Below are positions 2,369-12,790 of a stretch of 12,790 bases of DNA, piece after piece. The notes under the pieces were generated by a model. It did not search any database. It was given only the letters and a program-made list of their open reading frames with translations, and was not told the origin of the DNA. How positions within the stretch are numbered: position 1 is the first letter of the stretch; each line of letters begins with the position of its first letter. Source of the DNA: Pseudomonadota bacterium. GTDB taxonomy: Bacteria; SZUA-182; DTGQ01. The stretch is taken from assembly GCA_030625085.1 (NCBI GenBank), contig DAOURK010000144.1:1-12790 (forward strand), given 5' to 3'. Made by a program: the position numbers and the translations under genes.

Positions 2369-3325
2369 ATGGATCATCCTTCACTACAAACCATCTCTAG
2401 TGCACCTCAATTGGAGAGAGAAAATTATCGCCTCTGCTTCCGCTTTGAATATGGCCCCCTGGATGACGGGACCATCTGGGTCAGGACCCCCCGCCGGGGG
2501 CTGTTTCATGTAGACTGGCTAACTTTACGACTTTTACTTGAAATGAATGCCGGAGCATCAACAAAAAATCTGGCCCAAAAGTACAAAATTGAGATTAAAG
2601 AGATTCACTCTCTTTTGCTCAATCTGGAAAAAGAAGGCGCCATTGTTCTTTCCAGACAAGGGAAAATAACCAGAGGTAAGCTGCAAGATGACATTCATCT
2701 GGCCCCCTTCATTTTTCTCTTTTTATTTTTAGGAATCATACAAGTTGAATATTTTCAAAATCTGGCCAGTACTGTCCACCTCAATCACTGGTATGAAGGG
2801 GTATTAATTGGTTTAATCTCTATCATACCTATCATTTTGCATGAATTGGGGCACTATATGACAGCCAAGCCTTATTTCCCGCCCAGGTTGGGATTTACCT
2901 ACTTATGGTTCTTTCCGGCGGTATACATTGACACTCAGGCAGCCTGGTGCCTTCCACGAAACATCCGGTTATTAATCAACTCAGCCGGGCTTTTCATGGA
3001 CCTTATTTTCAACACCGTAATGGCATATGTAGTCCTTTATTATCCACCCTGGGAGTATTTTGTTACTCCACTACTTATTCTTCAATATACTCGATGGACA
3101 ATCATTCTCAACCCTCTGGTTAACGGCGACGGCTATTGGCTCCTGTCCGATGCTTCTAAAACCATTAATCTGCGAAGAAAAGGGAGAGAAACCCTGCGTA
3201 AAGGTAAAATTCATTGGTTATCCCTCTATGGCCTTTTGTCTTTGTTCTTTTCTCTATTATCCATATTGGGCCTGGCCTGGTTTATCATAAATCTTCTGGG
3301 AAAGGTTATTCCCCCTTTCTTTTAA
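2369..3325 (+). CDS. PqqD-like (RiPP recognition element-like) N-terminal domain fused to an M50/site-2-protease-like intramembrane zinc metalloprotease
   Basis: Residues 20-95 (YRLCFRFEYGPLDDGTIWVRTPRRGLFHVDWLTLRLLLEMNAGASTKNLAQKYKIEIKEIHSLLLNLEKEGAIVL) follow the PqqD-family pattern of a beta-hairpin then a helical segment ending in a hydrophobic L..L...G motif. Six predicted TM helices follow. HELGH sits inside TM2 (nt 2840-2854) and NPLVNGDGYW inside TM5. Together these match the M50 HExxH plus NxxPxxxxDG signature of the RseP/SpoIVFB family. The ATG at 2369 has only a weak A-rich RBS. Confidence 0.6.
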   Translation: MDHPSLQTISSAPQLERENYRLCFRFEYGPLDDGTIWVRTPRRGLFHVDWLTLRLLLEMNAGASTKNLAQKYKIEIKEIHSLLLNLEKEGAIVLSRQGKITRGKLQDDIHLAPFIFLFLFLGIIQVEYFQNLASTVHLNHWYEGVLIGLISIIPIILHELGHYMTAKPYFPPRLGFTYLWFFPAVYIDTQAAWCLPRNIRLLINSAGLFMDLIFNTVMAYVVLYYPPWEYFVTPLLILQYTRWTIILNPLVNGDGYWLLSDASKTINLRRKGRETLRKGKIHWLSLYGLLSLFFSLLSILGLAWFIINLLGKVIPPFF

Positions 3326-3343
3326 ATAAGGAGGAGCATAAAA

Positions 3344-4108
3344 ATGCAGTTGGGATTGTTAAAGACGTTTCTTATTATTATAGCCGCCATTGCCCTTTTA
3401 GGGTCCACCTTTAAAATTATGAAAGAATACGAGAGGGCGGTTATCTTTCGATTAGGAAAATTATTACGAACCAAGGGACCGGGACTTATTTTTCTTATCC
3501 CTCTGGTTGACCGAATGAAAAAAATCGATCTAAGGCTCGTCTCAATAGATGTGCCAAGACAAGACATCATGACCAGGGACAATGTACCGGTAACCGTAGA
3601 TGCAGTAGTATATTTCCTCATTAGTGATCCGGCCCGGGCGGTCATTGGTATTCAAAACATCTATCAGTCTACTTTTCTGATCGCTCAGACCACTTTGCGT
3701 AATATTCTCGGCCAAGCGGAGCTTGATGATCTGCTAAGCCAGCAGTCAAAAATCAACCAGCAATTACAGCAGGTTGTCAGTGAGCATACCAGCCAGTGGG
3801 GAATCAAAATTCCTATTGTCGAAATCAAGGAAGTTACCCTGCCGGAAGAAATGAAAAGAGCCATGGCCAAGCAAGCCGAAACCGAGAGGGAGAGGAGGGC
3901 TCGAATCATAGATGCCCAGGGAGAATATCAGGCAGCCCAGACCCTTGCAGATGCTGGTAAAATTCTGTCCAGCAGCCCCCAAAGTTTACAATTGCGCTAC
4001 CTTCAGACGTTACGAGATATTTCTATGCAAAAAGGCTCTACTATTGTTTTCCCCTTCCCTCTAGATGTGGTTGAACCTTTTGTACAAGGAATAAAAAAAA
4101 TTTTCCAA
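3344..4108 (+). other. SPFH/stomatin (band 7) domain portion of the fusion CDS
   Basis: Stomatin/QmcA-like sequence including a coiled-coil region (EMKRAMAKQAETERERRARIIDAQGEYQAAQTLADAG). The C-terminal boundary is approximate. Confidence 0.7.
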
Positions 4109-5362
4109 AAAGAAGGGTCTGAAGCTAAGGGGAAAAAAGAGGAATCAGGTAAAAGTATGCCGAAGGAAAAAATTGCCGATAGCGAACCACAAGTAATAGA
4201 TAATGAGCCCCAAGTTACAAATTTTCAAAAAATTGATGTCCAACCCAATAAAAGCGAGACTCCACCCACTCCACCCCAACAAGAAATATTGACTCAATAT
4301 CAGAAATCCTGGCGGGAAGGGAAATTAAAACCTCAATACGTGCAGTGGTTGAGTACAGATAGATGCCAGTTCCAATGTGCTCACTGCGAAACAACGGCTC
4401 AGCAGGCCAATCCTAAAGAGTTAACTACTGATGAAGCAAAAAAAATCTTAGATGATCTGGCTGAACTTGGGTGTGAATTTTTATCTATCACCGGTGGTGA
4501 ACCCTTATTGCGCAAAGATGTTTTCTCTCTTGGCCAACATGCCCACCAAAGAGGACTGAAAGTGGGGCTGACCACCAACGCCCAGGCTGCGGAAAAAAAT
4601 CTTATGGCCTTGGAAAAGACGCGCTTTGACTCTTTGGTCATTACCCTGGATGGATATAAAGATACGCAAAACCACCTTCGTGGAACTGAAGATAGTTACG
4701 AGCGAGGTATTCGTACCATTGAATTTTTTCATGATCTGGGCGCACCCTCTATTGGCGTATCCACCATCCTGCTGGAAGAAAATCTTCAGGAACTTCCGCA
4801 GATGACTGAAGAAATTTTTCGTGCCGGCGCCCACAGTCTTCAGCTTCAACCATTACTCTTCCAGCACGGCCGGCCGGCTCGAAACTCATCGGAATTGGTT
4901 AAAAACGCCTTGAGGTTTGTTCCGGAAGCCAGGAGACGAGGTTTTGCCGTAGAAATTGGCGAGGTTTTCGGCTATCTGGGTCCTCTGGGACCCTTGGTCC
5001 GCAGCACTCCATTTTTCTGCGGCTGCGGCTGGAATACCTTTTGTATTAACCAAGAGGGAGATGTGGTGGGCTGTGCGCTGTCGAAGGCCTCTAATCTGAA
5101 GGAAGGAAATTGTCGGACCGATTCCCTTAAAGATATTTGGGAACAAAAATTTAGTACATTTCGTCAAAATGTACCCTCAGGGCTTCCCTCAACCTGTAGC
5201 CAATGTGAACATGTTTCCATCTGCCGGGGAGGATGCTGGCTTTTTAGGGCTCAAGGGTTAAACCCTTGTTTTCTGCCTGAGGCAGAACAAGTTTATCAGG
5301 AGATTAACAATGCGTTATATTCTCAAACTATTGAAGGAAAATCCCAAGTATTATCTCGATAA
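3344..5362 (+). CDS. Fusion protein: N-terminal SPFH/stomatin-like (band 7) domain, low-complexity K/E/P/Q linker, then a radical SAM enzyme with C-terminal SPASM (auxiliary 4Fe-4S) domain
   Basis: A strong RBS (AAGGAGGAG) lies 8 nt upstream of the ATG. Residues 1-255 form a complete stomatin-like protein: a TM helix, then YERAVIFRLGKLLRTKGPGLIFLIPLVDRMKKIDLRLVSIDVPRQDIMTRDNVPVTVDAVVYF, ending in LRYLQTLRDISMQKGSTIVFPFPLDV. The rSAM CxxxCxxC motif is CQFQCAHC (aa 341-348, nt 4364-4387), followed by a GGEPLLRKD glycine-rich SAM-binding segment. The C-terminus has SPASM-type cysteine clusters CGCGWNTFCINQEGDVVGC and CSQCEHVSICRGGCW. The reading frame is continuous with no internal stop. Confidence 0.8.
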   Translation: MQLGLLKTFLIIIAAIALLGSTFKIMKEYERAVIFRLGKLLRTKGPGLIFLIPLVDRMKKIDLRLVSIDVPRQDIMTRDNVPVTVDAVVYFLISDPARAVIGIQNIYQSTFLIAQTTLRNILGQAELDDLLSQQSKINQQLQQVVSEHTSQWGIKIPIVEIKEVTLPEEMKRAMAKQAETERERRARIIDAQGEYQAAQTLADAGKILSSSPQSLQLRYLQTLRDISMQKGSTIVFPFPLDVVEPFVQGIKKIFQKEGSEAKGKKEESGKSMPKEKIADSEPQVIDNEPQVTNFQKIDVQPNKSETPPTPPQQEILTQYQKSWREGKLKPQYVQWLSTDRCQFQCAHCETTAQQANPKELTTDEAKKILDDLAELGCEFLSITGGEPLLRKDVFSLGQHAHQRGLKVGLTTNAQAAEKNLMALEKTRFDSLVITLDGYKDTQNHLRGTEDSYERGIRTIEFFHDLGAPSIGVSTILLEENLQELPQMTEEIFRAGAHSLQLQPLLFQHGRPARNSSELVKNALRFVPEARRRGFAVEIGEVFGYLGPLGPLVRSTPFFCGCGWNTFCINQEGDVVGCALSKASNLKEGNCRTDSLKDIWEQKFSTFRQNVPSGLPSTCSQCEHVSICRGGCWLFRAQGLNPCFLPEAEQVYQEINNALYSQTIEGKSQVLSR

Positions 5363-6425
5363 AATTAAATATTACCCCCGCAATGTAGTCTGGGAGCTGA
5401 CTTTGCGCTGCAATATGAATTGTGCTCATTGCGGGTCCGAGGCTGGACCTGAACGAGGGCAAGAACTTAACCATGAAGAGGCCATGGATTTTTGTCGTCA
5501 ATTGGGAAAAATGGGTTGTGAACTCCTGACGCTCCTGGGAGGGGAACCTTTTTTGCGGGAAGATTGGGATGATCTGGCCCTCTGTCTTCAAGAATATGGG
5601 GTTAAGGTGAACGCTATTTCCAACGGGTATCTCATGGATCAAGCTTTGGTGGATAGGATTAAAAAGGCCCGCCTGAGCAATGTGGCCGTAAGTCTGGACG
5701 GACTTGAGCAAACTCACCAAAAAATGAGGCGGAAGCCGGGGTCGTTTCAACGAGTTCTGAATGCTTTAGATCTGCTTCGACAAAATGGTGTCTCCTCAGC
5801 TATGGTCACCACCATCTGCAAGGATAACCTGGATGAGTTAGATGGGATTCAACAGATCGCCATTGAAAAACAGGTGGATATCTGGCAGCTTCAAATCGGC
5901 GTTCCCCGTGGAAGGCTTTGTGAGCACTCCGATTTTGTCATCCAACCGGAAGACCTTTCCAAACTTGAACAATTTGTGCTCCGGGCACGCAAGGATCAAC
6001 GTATAAGGTTGGATGTCGCTGACAACATCGGCTATTTTGGCCAAAATGAGGAATCCTTGCGCACCAGCACACCCGGTCGGCTCCCTTTCTGGAGCGGATG
6101 TTTTGCGGGGATACAAGCCCTTGGCATCGAAGCCAATGGAGACATTAAGGGATGTTTATCAATGCCTACCCTGCCGGAATTCATTGAGGGTAATGTGCGC
6201 CAAGAACCTTTGGCCAAAATCTGGAACAAGCCTGGAGGCTTTTCCTACAACCGAGATTTTCATACCCGTATGTTGGAAGGTGATTGCAAGGATTGTGAAT
6301 ATGGTTATGTGTGCCGGGGAGGCTGTAAATCTACGGCCTATTGCTTTACCGGCTCGTTTTTTAATAATCCTTATTGCCTCTACCGCATAGAAAAAAAAGG
6401 AGAGGATAAAAAGTATAATAGTTAA
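5310..6425 (+). CDS. Radical SAM / SPASM-domain enzyme (peptide-maturase-like; anSME/sactipeptide-maturase-like architecture)
   Basis: An AGGAGA RBS lies 6 nt upstream of the ATG at 5310, and the start overlaps the upstream stop by 53 nt, suggesting translational coupling. The CxxxCxxC motif is CNMNCAHC (nt 5409-5432), followed by a GGEPFLRED SAM-binding motif. C-terminal SPASM cysteines are GCFAGIQALGIEANGDIKGC and CKDCEYGYVCRGGCKSTAYC. Confidence 0.85.
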   Translation: MRYILKLLKENPKYYLDKIKYYPRNVVWELTLRCNMNCAHCGSEAGPERGQELNHEEAMDFCRQLGKMGCELLTLLGGEPFLREDWDDLALCLQEYGVKVNAISNGYLMDQALVDRIKKARLSNVAVSLDGLEQTHQKMRRKPGSFQRVLNALDLLRQNGVSSAMVTTICKDNLDELDGIQQIAIEKQVDIWQLQIGVPRGRLCEHSDFVIQPEDLSKLEQFVLRARKDQRIRLDVADNIGYFGQNEESLRTSTPGRLPFWSGCFAGIQALGIEANGDIKGCLSMPTLPEFIEGNVRQEPLAKIWNKPGGFSYNRDFHTRMLEGDCKDCEYGYVCRGGCKSTAYCFTGSFFNNPYCLYRIEKKGEDKKYNS

Positions 6426-12131: not shown

Positions 12132-12303
12132 AAAAATATATCCCATAAAACAGTGGTGTCAAAGAGGTACCTTAAAAAGGAGGTGATTTTTAAAATATTT
12201 TAGCTTCATCAAGTTTTTTACACTAGTAGTAATAACATATTTTCCAAATCCTCTTTTTACCTATTACCTTTAGGGGGGAGAGGAACAAAGAAAGGATGAC
12301 ACT

Positions 12304-12790
12304 GTGAAAACGAAAAAAAGCGGGTTTTTGAAAAAATTTTTACTTTGCACTTTTGTCTTGTCAATTTTATCAGTATGGAGTATTGCTCCTGTAGCCCAAG
12401 CCCAAATACTTGGTGGCCTTAATCCCATGATGATGGGACAAATGGCAATGAATCAAATGTTTTCAAGCCCCATTATGATGCAAGGGATGATGATGAATCC
12501 CATGATGAGCATGTATGGTGCTGGAGCCGGCGGTTACGGTGGATATGCCGGTTACGGTATGTCCTCCCCTTATAGTGGTTACGGCGGCTATGGGTCCAGT
12601 GGATACGGCGGTTATGGTATGCAGTCCCCTTACAGCGGATATGGGTCCAGTGGATATGGCGGTTATGGTATGCAGTCCCCTTACAGTGGATATGGCAGTA
12701 GCTATGGCGGTTATGGTATGCAGTCCCCTTACAGTGGATATGGCAGTAGCTATGGCGGTTATGGTATGCAGTCCCCTTACAGTGGATATG
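12304..12790 (+). CDS. Partial CDS running off the window: secreted protein with a signal peptide, a methionine-rich segment and Gly/Tyr-rich tandem repeats
   Basis: The ATG at 12296 hits a stop after 3 codons. A GTG at 12304, with AAGGA 8 nt upstream, opens a frame that runs to the window end. It translates as VKTKKSGFLKKFLLCTFVLSILSVWSIAPVAQA/QILGGLNPMMMGQMAMNQMFSSPIMMQGMMMNPMMSMYGAG, then (GGYGMQSPYSGYGSS[G]Y)n. The n-region, hydrophobic core and AQA cleavage site form a classic Sec signal peptide. Confidence 0.6.
   Translation, partial: MKTKKSGFLKKFLLCTFVLSILSVWSIAPVAQAQILGGLNPMMMGQMAMNQMFSSPIMMQGMMMNPMMSMYGAGAGGYGGYAGYGMSSPYSGYGGYGSSGYGGYGMQSPYSGYGSSGYGGYGMQSPYSGYGSSYGGYGMQSPYSGYGSSYGGYGMQSPYSGY
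12607..12790 (+). repeat. Tandem direct repeats of 48 nt, preceded by one 51-nt variant unit. The units 12658-12705 and 12706-12753 are nucleotide-identical, and the partial unit 12754-12790 is identical up to the window edge. More degenerate GY-repeat copies start around 12526.
   Basis: Direct reading of the sequence. The unit is ggcggttatggtatgcagtccccttacagtggatatggcagtagctat. Confidence 0.9.

What the first reader, a model, noticed from the sequence alone, without database searches (positions are those of the whole stretch)
12304..12790. Secreted Met-rich and Gly/Tyr-repeat protein encoded by perfect 48-nt tandem repeats, truncated at the window edge
After a canonical signal peptide the mature protein opens with a 40-residue stretch containing about 14 Met residues (MMMGQMAMNQMFSSPIMMQGMMMNPMM). 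It then continues as GGYGMQSPYSGYGSSY units. The last units are 100% identical at the nucleotide level, which points to recent expansion by slippage or recombination and likely copy-number variability. Methionine-rich motifs are used by periplasmic Cu(I)/Ag(I)-binding proteins of the CopA/PcoC/CusF type. GY-rich repeats are typical of self-assembling or cross-linkable structural proteins. The combination in a bacterial secreted protein is unusual. Tyr-rich repeats would also be conceivable substrates for radical cross-linking chemistry. The window, and perhaps the contig, ends inside the repeat, as assemblers often break there.
Basis: seen in the sequence. Interest (0 to 1): 0.6.

Follow-up and report, generated by a model that had tools for sequence, protein, structure and literature searches.

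The report
Exported charge-free Met/Gly/Tyr repeat protein
This is a real gene for an exported protein with no charged residues in the part seen: a conserved methionine-rich head and a variable number of Gly/Tyr repeats, found so far in two uncultured clades and most likely a self-assembling envelope or coat material, with no support for a copper-binding or radical-SAM role.

Summary
The ORF starts at GTG 12304, which is ATG in a close relative. It has a Sec signal peptide (…APVAQA|QILGG) and 14 Met in 30 residues, followed by GY/SPY repeats. The last 136 nt (12655-12790) have perfect 48-nt periodicity. The window is a whole 12,790-nt contig that ends in the repeat, and seven related contigs also break inside this gene.

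Orthologues sit at the same place (tsaB → gene → miaA/mutL) in a hot-spring sister clade. There they are complete: 257, 274 and 311 aa. The heads and the S/Y-rich tails are almost identical, and only the repeat number differs.

Repeat units that have diverged at the DNA level differ only at synonymous sites, so the peptide is under selection.

The visible mature part has no D/E/K/R/H/C. AlphaFold gives a helical Met-rich head and a disordered tail.

There is no Pfam or NCBIfam hit. The architecture resembles Beggiatoa sulfur-globule proteins, but Pfam SGP is not matched.

The rSAM cassette is absent from the syntenic loci of relatives. No copper genes are nearby.

Best reading: a self-assembling extracytoplasmic structural or coat protein. 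The function itself is inferred, not shown.

The parts
12176..12187 (+). AAAGGAGGTGAT, a perfect Shine-Dalgarno-like element 117 nt upstream of the start, with no conserved start codon or ORF after it
   Evidence: It is conserved in the window clade and, as GGGAGGTGGT, in the sister clade, although the rest of the spacer has diverged. A role as an mRNA-stabilising or standby site, like the Bacillus cryIIIA STAB-SD, is my own-knowledge analogy and was not tested.
12273..12296 (+). Purine-rich leader GGGGGGAGAGGAACAAAGAAAGGA, including the ribosome-binding site AAAGGA (12291-12296) 7 nt before the start
   Evidence: GGGGGAGA(A/G)GAA is invariant in both clades. Sequence read.
12304..12402 (+). 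Start codon GTG and Sec signal peptide (residues 1-33): basic n-region with K2, K4, K5, K10 and K11, a hydrophobic core, and A-Q-A before the cleavage site. There is no lipobox.
   Evidence: The start is ATG in L084 at the same position. The sister clade has …SLTHA|QLLGG. The region is helical with pLDDT up to 94. The cleavage site was judged by eye with the -3/-1 rule, not by a predictor.
12403..12456 (+). Most conserved segment, the mature N-terminus Q-[IL]-LGG[LF]NP-x2-[MI]G-x-MAMNQ
   Evidence: These columns are invariant between clades whose TsaB proteins are 58% identical.
12424..12513 (+). Met-rich head (residues 41-70, 14 Met of 30), predicted helical
   Evidence: Close relatives carry in-frame insertions here, such as QGSMMNPMMMM in L083 and L086.
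12514..12790 (+). Gly/Tyr/Ser/Pro repeat region, with 15 [G/S]Y[G/S] triplets and a Pro about every 16-20 residues. It runs off the contig.
   Evidence: pLDDT is about 33, consistent with disorder.
12604..12651 (+). Older repeat unit that encodes the same 16 residues as the perfect units, with 7 nt differences in 5 codons, all synonymous (including TCC versus AGT for Ser)
12655..12790 (+). 2.83 perfectly identical 48-nt units encoding YGGYGMQSPYSGYGSS. The contig ends here.

Best explanation
This is a genuine, selected gene. Its product is exported by the Sec pathway and cleaved after A-Q-A.

The mature protein has three parts:
- a short conserved N-terminal motif and a Met-rich, probably helical, hydrophobic head;
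- a disordered Gly/Tyr/Ser/Pro repeat region whose copy number changes quickly;
- by orthology, an S/Y-rich tail ending in YY.

The visible mature part has no charged residue. The complete sister-clade proteins have only one or two. In the sister clade the mature protein is 24-29 kDa.

I infer that it acts as a self-assembling structural material outside the cytoplasm, such as a coat, matrix or envelope layer. In this model the uncharged [G/S]Y[G/S]-type repeats associate through tyrosine stacking or cross-beta contacts. The Met-rich head mediates self-association or docking to a hydrophobic surface or partner.

Shown here: the gene is real, it has an export signal, its composition is as described, it is conserved, its repeat number varies, and its peptide is under selection. 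Inferred: self-assembly, location in the envelope, and the role of the head.
For: - Real gene: GTG/ATG start covariation and a conserved RBS and leader. The signal peptide and head motif are conserved between clades with 58% TsaB identity, at the same position between tsaB and miaA.
- Selection on the peptide: repeat units that diverged at the DNA level differ only synonymously, both in the window and in the sister clade. All allele length differences are in frame.
- Composition: no D/E/K/R/H/C/W in the 129 mature residues seen; G 29%, Y 18%, S 17%, M 15%.
- Structure prediction: helical signal peptide and head, tail at pLDDT about 33.
- Rapid change typical of exposed or structural repeat proteins: alleles of 257, 274 and 311 aa in near-identical strains, different repeat units (48 nt against 75 nt) between relatives whose TsaB is 96% identical, and head pN about 0.09 against 0.017 for TsaB.
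- Architectural parallel: the experimentally supported Beggiatoa sulfur-globule envelope proteins have a Sec signal, a non-repeat head, and GYGYPYGGY or APYGGYAPAPYAGYG repeats with spaced prolines (PMC7356093 supplement; PMC10386293).
- It looks like a separate gene. A 172-nt conserved spacer lies upstream, and in the sister clade the gene converges on miaA.
Against: - There is no experimental or expression evidence, and no structure.
- No functional partner genes are nearby. The neighbours are housekeeping genes (tsaB, miaA, mutL).
- A third related lineage (L003) lacks the gene at this site, so it is dispensable or has moved.
- Self-assembly is inferred from composition only.
- Low-complexity similarity to sulfur-globule proteins, to plant glycine-rich proteins or to the FUS low-complexity domain can arise by convergence and does not establish function.
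- The head evolves fast in one comparison (dN/dS 0.7-1.3, based on few sites), which fits weak constraint as well as it fits surface exposure.
Confidence: 0.5

Rival explanations
1. It is a functional analogue of sulfur-globule envelope proteins. The exported protein coats periplasmic elemental-sulfur (or other hydrophobic mineral) inclusions. The Met-rich head faces the sulfur and the GY repeats form the envelope. This is a specific version of the best explanation.
For: It has the same build as the Beggiatoa, Thioflexithrix and Allochromatium Sgp proteins: a Sec signal, a head, G/Y/P repeats with regularly spaced prolines, and a single-gene unit. G+Y fractions are similar, 40-50%. The habitats are sulfidic: cold-seep relatives (the CSMAG catalogue) and Obsidian Pool hot spring.
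Against: There is no hit to Pfam SGP PF17228 even at E<=10, whereas the Beggiatoa-type controls hit it. BLASTP against the B. alba Sgp gives E=0.19 and phmmer gives 10-17 bits. The protein is about twice the size of known Sgps and lacks their W-rich head and their few charges. No sulfur-oxidation gene was seen in about 60 kb of related DNA inspected. Whether these organisms store sulfur is unknown.
Confidence: 0.15
2. It is a periplasmic Cu(I)/Ag(I)-binding or buffering protein that uses Met thioethers in MxM and MxxM motifs.
For: There are 14 Met in 30 residues, with 4 MxM and 5 MxxM motifs. Eight Met positions are conserved between the clades. From my own knowledge, Met-rich segments bind Cu(I) in CusF, CueO, CopA/PcoA and Ctr1.
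Against: The head has no His, Cys, Asp or Trp. No copper-related Pfam or NCBIfam family matches at E<=10. No cop/cus/pco/cue gene is near the gene in any of the three lineages. The number and spacing of Met vary through insertions between close relatives. The idea does not explain the large GY repeat and the S/Y tail that make up most of the protein.
Confidence: 0.1
3. It is a sacrificial redox sink or redox-switchable material. Met and Tyr residues scavenge oxidants in the envelope, or Met oxidation tunes assembly, as reported for the Met-rich low-complexity domain of yeast Pbp1 (own knowledge).
For: The protein is extremely rich in Met (15%) and Tyr (18-25%) and sits in an exported location.
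Against: No msrP/msrQ or peroxidase genes are nearby. The lineage's nearest named FtsH relatives are Deltaproteobacteria-type taxa, and the habitats are sediments and hot springs, where oxidant exposure may be low. The idea rests on composition alone.
Confidence: 0.07
4. It is a substrate of the radical-SAM/SPASM enzymes at 3344-6425, which would cross-link or modify the Tyr-rich repeats.
For: Two rSAM/SPASM proteins and an M50-like membrane protein lie 6-10 kb upstream on the same contig.
Against: Five unrelated genes, one on the opposite strand, lie between them. In the sister clade the GY gene and its neighbours are kept without the cassette, and the cassette is not next to ftsH there either. 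The product is exported by Sec with a signal peptide, whereas rSAM maturases act in the cytoplasm on leader-bearing peptides (own knowledge).
Confidence: 0.03
5. It is an artefact: either a spurious ORF in a DNA-level repeat, or a repeat produced by assembly.
For: Other frames and the opposite strand are also open across the repeat. The perfect 136-nt periodic stretch lies exactly at the contig end, where de Bruijn assemblers can loop. Copy numbers from short-read assemblies are unreliable.
Against: Only this frame carries the conserved start, RBS, signal peptide and head. Diverged units differ only synonymously in this frame. The 274-aa allele was recovered identically in two JGI assemblies, L080 and L087. 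The first 330 nt of the gene are identical in a separate Logan contig (L001); whether its reads are independent of the window's assembly is not known.
Confidence: 0.03

Closest known systems
Sulfur globule envelope proteins (SgpA/B/C of Allochromatium; Beggiatoa ALG67575.1, B. alba EIJ43877.1; Pfam PF17228 SGP)
   Same: Both have a Sec signal peptide with Ala at -1, a short non-repeat head and then Gly/Tyr/Pro-rich repeats with regularly spaced prolines. Both have G+Y of about 40-50%, are small exported structural proteins, and are encoded by single-gene units.
   Different: There is no detectable sequence relationship: no PF17228 hit, BLASTP E=0.19, phmmer 10-17 bits. The head is Met-rich rather than Trp/Gly-rich. 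The protein has almost no charges, against 7-11 in the Sgps. It is rich in Ser rather than Ala/Pro. The complete sister-clade proteins are 24-29 kDa mature, against 8-15 kDa. It is not known whether the host stores sulfur.
Eukaryotic [G/S]Y[G/S] low-complexity domains (FUS LC) and Gly/Tyr-rich wall or cuticle proteins (plant GRPs, resilin; Met/Gly-rich abductin). Comparison from my own knowledge.
   Same: Both are nearly charge-free, G/S/Y/Q/P/M-rich, repetitive and disordered. The window protein has 15 [G/S]Y[G/S] triplets in the part seen, and the complete orthologues have 25-38. The eukaryotic proteins self-associate into gels, fibrils or elastomers.
   Different: This protein is bacterial and is exported through Sec. 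It has a conserved Met-rich head. There is no evidence of homology, and self-assembly was not tested here.
Met-rich periplasmic Cu(I) proteins (CusF, CopC/PcoC, Met-rich inserts of CueO/CopA/PcoA). Comparison from my own knowledge.
   Same: Both are exported and have dense MxM and MxxM motifs.
   Different: There is no fold or family match. The head has no His, Asp or Trp ligands. There is no copper-resistance gene context. Most of the protein is a GY repeat with no counterpart in those families.
Other GY-repeat proteins found here: P0005 (a secreted protein with GGYGYSTPYAGYGTSL repeats, from JGI contigs) and P0001/P0003 (GYGMQ[ST]PF repeats, in a phage-like locus)
   Same: The repeat motifs are very similar (GYGMQSPY/F, S/TPYxGYG). 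P0005 also has a signal peptide and a Y-rich C-terminus.
   Different: Their N-terminal regions are unrelated. P0003 has no signal peptide and sits among holin, lysozyme and transglycosylase genes. The similarity is confined to low-complexity sequence.

Membership tests
Pfam PF17228 SGP (sulphur globule protein) | Match to the family profile at or near the gathering score | tested here: not met
   The window protein and the two complete orthologues give no Pfam hit at E<=10. As positive controls, B. leptomitoformis Sgp scores 27.7 bits (cut-off 26.7), and B. alba and Thioflexithrix score 21-23 bits.
Sulfur globule proteins (functional class) | Sec signal peptide and a repetitive G/Y/P-rich mature protein with regularly spaced prolines | tested here: met
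   compared with PMC10386293 and the supplement of PMC7356093.
Sulfur globule proteins (functional class) | The host oxidises sulfide or thiosulfate and deposits sulfur globules, and the protein is found on the globules or induced by sulfide | not testable with these tools
   Only about 60 kb of related DNA could be inspected, and it held no sulfur-oxidation genes. Complete MAGs, expression data and microscopy were not available.
Met-rich periplasmic copper proteins (CusF PF11604, CopC PF04234, multicopper oxidases) | Profile match to one of these families, or His/Met/Trp ligand sets | tested here: not met
   No Pfam or NCBIfam hit at E<=10. The mature part seen has no His, Trp, Asp or Cys.
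Met-rich periplasmic copper proteins | Genomic association with copper homeostasis genes (copA, cusCBA, cueO, pco) | tested here: not met
   None is present in the window or within ±10 kb of the orthologues.
Met-rich periplasmic copper proteins | Cu(I)/Ag(I) binding | not testable with these tools
   This needs biochemistry.
rSAM/SPASM-modified peptides (RiPP-like) | A precursor gene adjacent to and co-conserved with its maturase, and a cytoplasmic leader rather than a Sec signal | tested here: not met
   The cassette is 6 kb away behind five unrelated genes. It is absent from the syntenic loci that keep the gene. The product has a Sec signal peptide.
Curli and other known bacterial functional amyloids (CsgA, Fap, chaplins, TasA) | Profile match, or the dedicated secretion or nucleator genes nearby | tested here: not met
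   No Pfam or NCBIfam hit. No csgG/fapF-type genes are among the neighbours.

The most novel reading that the evidence does not exclude
Bacteria of an uncultured lineage, whose nearest named relatives are Deltaproteobacteria-type taxa, export a charge-free, FUS-LC-like Gly/Tyr repeat protein with a methionine-bristle head. Outside the cytoplasm it forms a gel, condensate or film, for example a coat on sulfur or mineral particles or an envelope layer. Its properties are tuned by repeat number and possibly by Met oxidation or soft-metal binding. This would be a previously undescribed type of extracytoplasmic low-complexity material in prokaryotes.
Probability: 0.15. Interest if true: 0.7.

Novelty: new variant of a known kind. 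Interest (0 to 1): 0.38.

Why it matters
If the inference is right, this is an unannotated family of exported bacterial low-complexity proteins. It combines a [G/S]Y[G/S]-type repeat region that is essentially free of charge with an exceptionally Met-rich head.

It would add a case to the small set of known bacterial Gly/Tyr structural proteins, of which the sulfur-globule envelopes are the main example. It would also give a simple system for asking how such sequences assemble outside the cell, including at hot-spring temperatures.

There are two practical lessons. The gene breaks short-read assemblies wherever it occurs. Its family members are also missing from, or barely detectable in, the large protein databases searched here. 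Proteins of this type are therefore likely to be under-counted.

Tried and rejected
1. Word-indexed homology search with the full 162 aa gave only low-complexity matches (P0001-P0003).

2. A profile of the N-terminal 80-96 residues from two clades gave nothing.

3. Exhaustive phmmer against 1.84 billion representatives gave three low-complexity hits and no N-terminal match.

4. Calibration showed that these negatives carry little weight. The known sister-clade orthologues reach only 22-43 bits with the full query at that library size. The family's own gene products are not in the protein collection.

The genome scan with TsaB gave L002 and L003.

6. Pfam and NCBIfam gave no hits. Rfam on the window and on the leader gave nothing.

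7. The sigma-70 promoter and terminator scans found no promoter-like site on the gene's strand and no terminator-like site next to the gene, and the totals were close to those in shuffled sequence.

8. Taxonomy could not be resolved. The cold-seep catalogue supplement does not list CSMAG_2299. FtsH relatives at 77-78% identity are labelled only 'bacterium', and the next tier (55-60%) is Deltaproteobacteria, Desulfuromonadales, Geobacteraceae and KSB1.

One hop through a cluster id showed only polysaccharide-synthesis, signalling and chemotaxis genes.

10. dN/dS on the 68-codon head rests on too few sites to interpret.

11. Lipoprotein: rejected. Cys15 has no lipobox and is absent in the sister clade.

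12. C-terminal sorting signals (LPXTG, PEP-CTERM): rejected. The orthologues end in …SGTYY.

Full report
**1. Observation**

Frame 1 from 12304 is open to the end of the window. It reads VKTKKSGFLKKFLLCTFVLSILSVWSIAPVAQA|QILGGLNPMMMGQMAMNQMFSSPIMMQGMMMNPMMSMYGAGAGGYGGYAGYGMSSPYSGYGGYGSSGYGGYGMQSPYSGYGSS….

- GTG 12304 is the first start codon after an in-frame TAG. AAAGGA lies 7 nt upstream. In the close relative L084 the same codon is ATG.
- The N-terminus has a basic n-region, a hydrophobic core and A-x-A before Q34. This is a standard Sec/signal peptidase I pattern, judged by eye. There is no lipobox.
- Residues 41-70 hold 14 Met. The other eight proteins of the window never exceed 4 Met in 30 residues.
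- Tandem Repeats Finder reports a 48-nt period at 12607-12790. Exact periodicity spans 12655-12790, which is 2.83 units.
- The window is the entire contig (12,790 nt), so the assembly ends in the repeat.

**2. Is it a real gene?**

Yes.

- *Orthologues.* A genome scan with the neighbouring TsaB found two related MAG contigs. L002 (JAILZY010000046; TsaB 58% identical) carries, directly downstream of tsaB, a complete 257-aa ORF with the same build: signal peptide, AQ-LGGLNP-x2-MG-x-MAMNQ, a Met-rich stretch, GYGYSPYGY repeats and an S/Y-rich tail ending in …SGTYY.
- *More alleles.* A metagenome scan and look-ups of TsaB cluster members added L080 and L087 (274 aa, identical to each other), L088 (311 aa) and several truncated copies.
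- *Leader.* The RBS and a purine-rich leader are conserved across both clades.
- *Selection on the peptide.* The window's older unit (12604-12651) encodes the same 16 residues as the perfect units but differs at 7 nt in 5 codons, all synonymous, including TCC versus AGT for Ser. In the sister clade, the two to seven copies per allele of GYGAGYGYSPY differ only at synonymous positions. The repeat peptide is therefore under purifying selection in this frame. Only the last 2.8 units of the window look like a recent expansion.
- *Other frames.* Other frames are open across the repeat, but none has the start, the signal peptide or the conservation.

**3. Repeat dynamics**

- The three complete sister-clade alleles have nearly identical heads (four substitutions in L002) and tails. 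They differ by in-frame gain or loss of repeat blocks, giving 257, 274 and 311 aa.
- Within the window's own clade (TsaB 95-97% identical), L083 has a different 75-nt unit (GYGGSSMYGGGYGSPYSGYGSSGYG). L083 and L086 also carry extra MMNPMM-type insertions in the head.
- Eight contigs from different samples (window, L001, L083-L086, L089, L090) all end within 150-490 nt of the gene start.
- Copy numbers from short-read assemblies should be treated as minimum or approximate values.

**4. Properties**

- The 129 mature residues seen contain no D, E, K, R, H, C or W. Composition is G 29%, Y 18%, S 17%, M 15%.
- The complete sister proteins are 24-29 kDa mature, with 24-25% Tyr and one or two acidic residues in total. 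They have 25-38 [G/S]Y[G/S] triplets and a proline every 11-16 residues in the repeats.
- AlphaFold2, run on the single sequence, gives a helix through the signal peptide and the Met-rich head (pLDDT 55-94). The tail has pLDDT of about 33, consistent with disorder. A single-sequence model is weak evidence.

**5. Context**

- In the window the order is ftsH(-), an M50-like membrane protein, an SPFH–rSAM/SPASM fusion, a second rSAM/SPASM gene, GH57 branching enzyme(-), DUF4390, an NtrY-like kinase, tsaB, and then this gene.
- In the sister clade the block GH57–(cobU)–DUF4390–kinase–tsaB–gene–miaA(-)–mutL(-) is conserved. Upstream of GH57, however, lie an S10 peptidase and an MFS gene. The sister-clade ftsH sits elsewhere without the cassette.
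- L003, a cold-seep MAG, has kinase–tsaB–miaA with no gene between tsaB and miaA.
- The gene therefore has no conserved functional neighbours, and local linkage to the rSAM cassette is not supported.

**6. Organisms**

- FtsH relatives at 77-78% identity are labelled only 'bacterium'. The next tier, at 55-60%, is Deltaproteobacteria, Desulfuromonadales, Geobacteraceae and KSB1.
- The sister clade (GC 48-49%) occurs in hot-spring data. SRR6049666 is Obsidian Pool, Yellowstone (PMC10762115). IMG 3300009503 is listed among datasets that a correction notice says were deposited at IMG/M (PMC9599585).
- The window's clade has 36-40% GC. The related L003 comes from the cold-seep MAG catalogue (PMC10491686).

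**7. Comparison with known families**

- There is no Pfam or NCBIfam hit at E<=10.
- The closest described proteins by architecture are the sulfur-globule envelope proteins. The Beggiatoa and Thioflexithrix sequences in the supplement of PMC7356093 have a Sec signal, a W/G-rich head and GYGYPYGGY or APYGGYAPAPYAGYG repeats. They match Pfam SGP PF17228.
- The present family does not match SGP, and pairwise scores are at noise level. It may work like an Sgp, but it is not a member of that family on the evidence available.
- The Met-rich head recalls Cu(I) motifs. It lacks His, Asp and Trp, matches no copper family and has no copper gene context.
- From my own knowledge, the overall composition is closest to FUS-type [G/S]Y[G/S] low-complexity domains and to Gly/Tyr or Gly/Met structural proteins such as plant GRPs, resilin and abductin.

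**8. Limits of the searches**

- The three large protein searches returned only low-complexity matches.
- A local calibration shows that the known orthologues score only 22-43 bits with the full-length query.
- The family's products are absent from the protein collection.
- 'No homologues' therefore means 'not detectable with these resources'. It does not mean the family is restricted to two clades.

**9. Verdict**

The gene is real, exported, selected and hypervariable in repeat number. The most likely role is a self-assembling extracytoplasmic structural or coat protein (confidence about 0.5). A sulfur-globule-like coat is the most concrete sub-hypothesis (about 0.15). The copper-binding reading (about 0.1) and the rSAM-substrate reading (about 0.03) are weak.

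The family is unannotated, and its combination of features is unusual. But exported low-complexity orphan proteins are not rare, and no function has been shown, so the interest is moderate.

Noticed in passing
window 12176-12187 (also L080 and L002, about 130 nt upstream of their start codons): A perfect Shine-Dalgarno-like AAAGGAGGTGAT lies about 117 nt upstream of the start codon. It is conserved across both clades, although the surrounding spacer has diverged, and no conserved start codon or ORF follows it. It could be a ribosome standby or mRNA-stabilising element like STAB-SD of Bacillus cryIIIA (own knowledge). Rfam finds nothing here.
   Followed up: partly
window 2369-6425: This stretch holds an M50-like polytopic membrane protein (weak HExxH-region hit), an SPFH/Band-7 domain fused to a radical-SAM/SPASM enzyme (672 aa), and a second rSAM/SPASM enzyme (371 aa) that overlaps the fusion gene by 53 nt. 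The cassette is absent from the corresponding positions in relatives L003, L080, L087 and L088, and from beside ftsH in L093 and L094. No precursor peptide was looked for.
   Followed up: partly
L091 8001-8552 (Logan SRR13003735 contig): P0003, a 183-aa protein with GYGMQ[ST]PF(S)GY repeats almost identical to the window's GYGMQSPYSGY unit but with no signal peptide, sits in a phage-like locus with GTA-holin, GH108 lysozyme, SLT transglycosylase and polyvalent-protein genes.
   Followed up: partly
L081/L082 81-1007 (JGI 3300036286 and 3300036540, 1-kb contigs): P0005 is a 308-aa protein with a signal peptide, an acidic non-repeat region, four GGYGYSTPYAGYGTSL repeats and a Y-rich C-terminus ending in YGYY. 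Its architecture is similar to the window protein and its head is unrelated. Both contigs hold only this gene.
   Followed up: partly
L093 395-1756 and 1805-3031 (sister-clade contig, ENA ERZ27247235): Two adjacent proteins without Pfam hits (453 and 408 aa) each have an N-terminal signal or anchor, a probable folded domain and a long Gly/Tyr/Leu/Phe/Pro-rich low-complexity tail. The lineage therefore seems to encode several exported proteins with aromatic/Gly-rich tails.
   Followed up: no
L083 1203-3389: In this close relative the NtrY-like kinase is called as three pieces (496, 70 and 190 aa) instead of one 734-aa protein. This suggests frameshifts, either a pseudogene or assembly errors.
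   Followed up: no
L003 6903-8533: In the cold-seep MAG CSMAG_2299, tsaB and the convergent miaA overlap by 4 nt, with no GY gene between them. The gene has been lost or moved in one of three roughly equidistant lineages.
   Followed up: partly
protein databases: None of the family's called gene products is present in the 15-billion-protein collection by exact look-up, including the complete 272-aa JGI call in L087, although their neighbours are. The word-indexed and representative searches are therefore blind to this family.
   Followed up: partly
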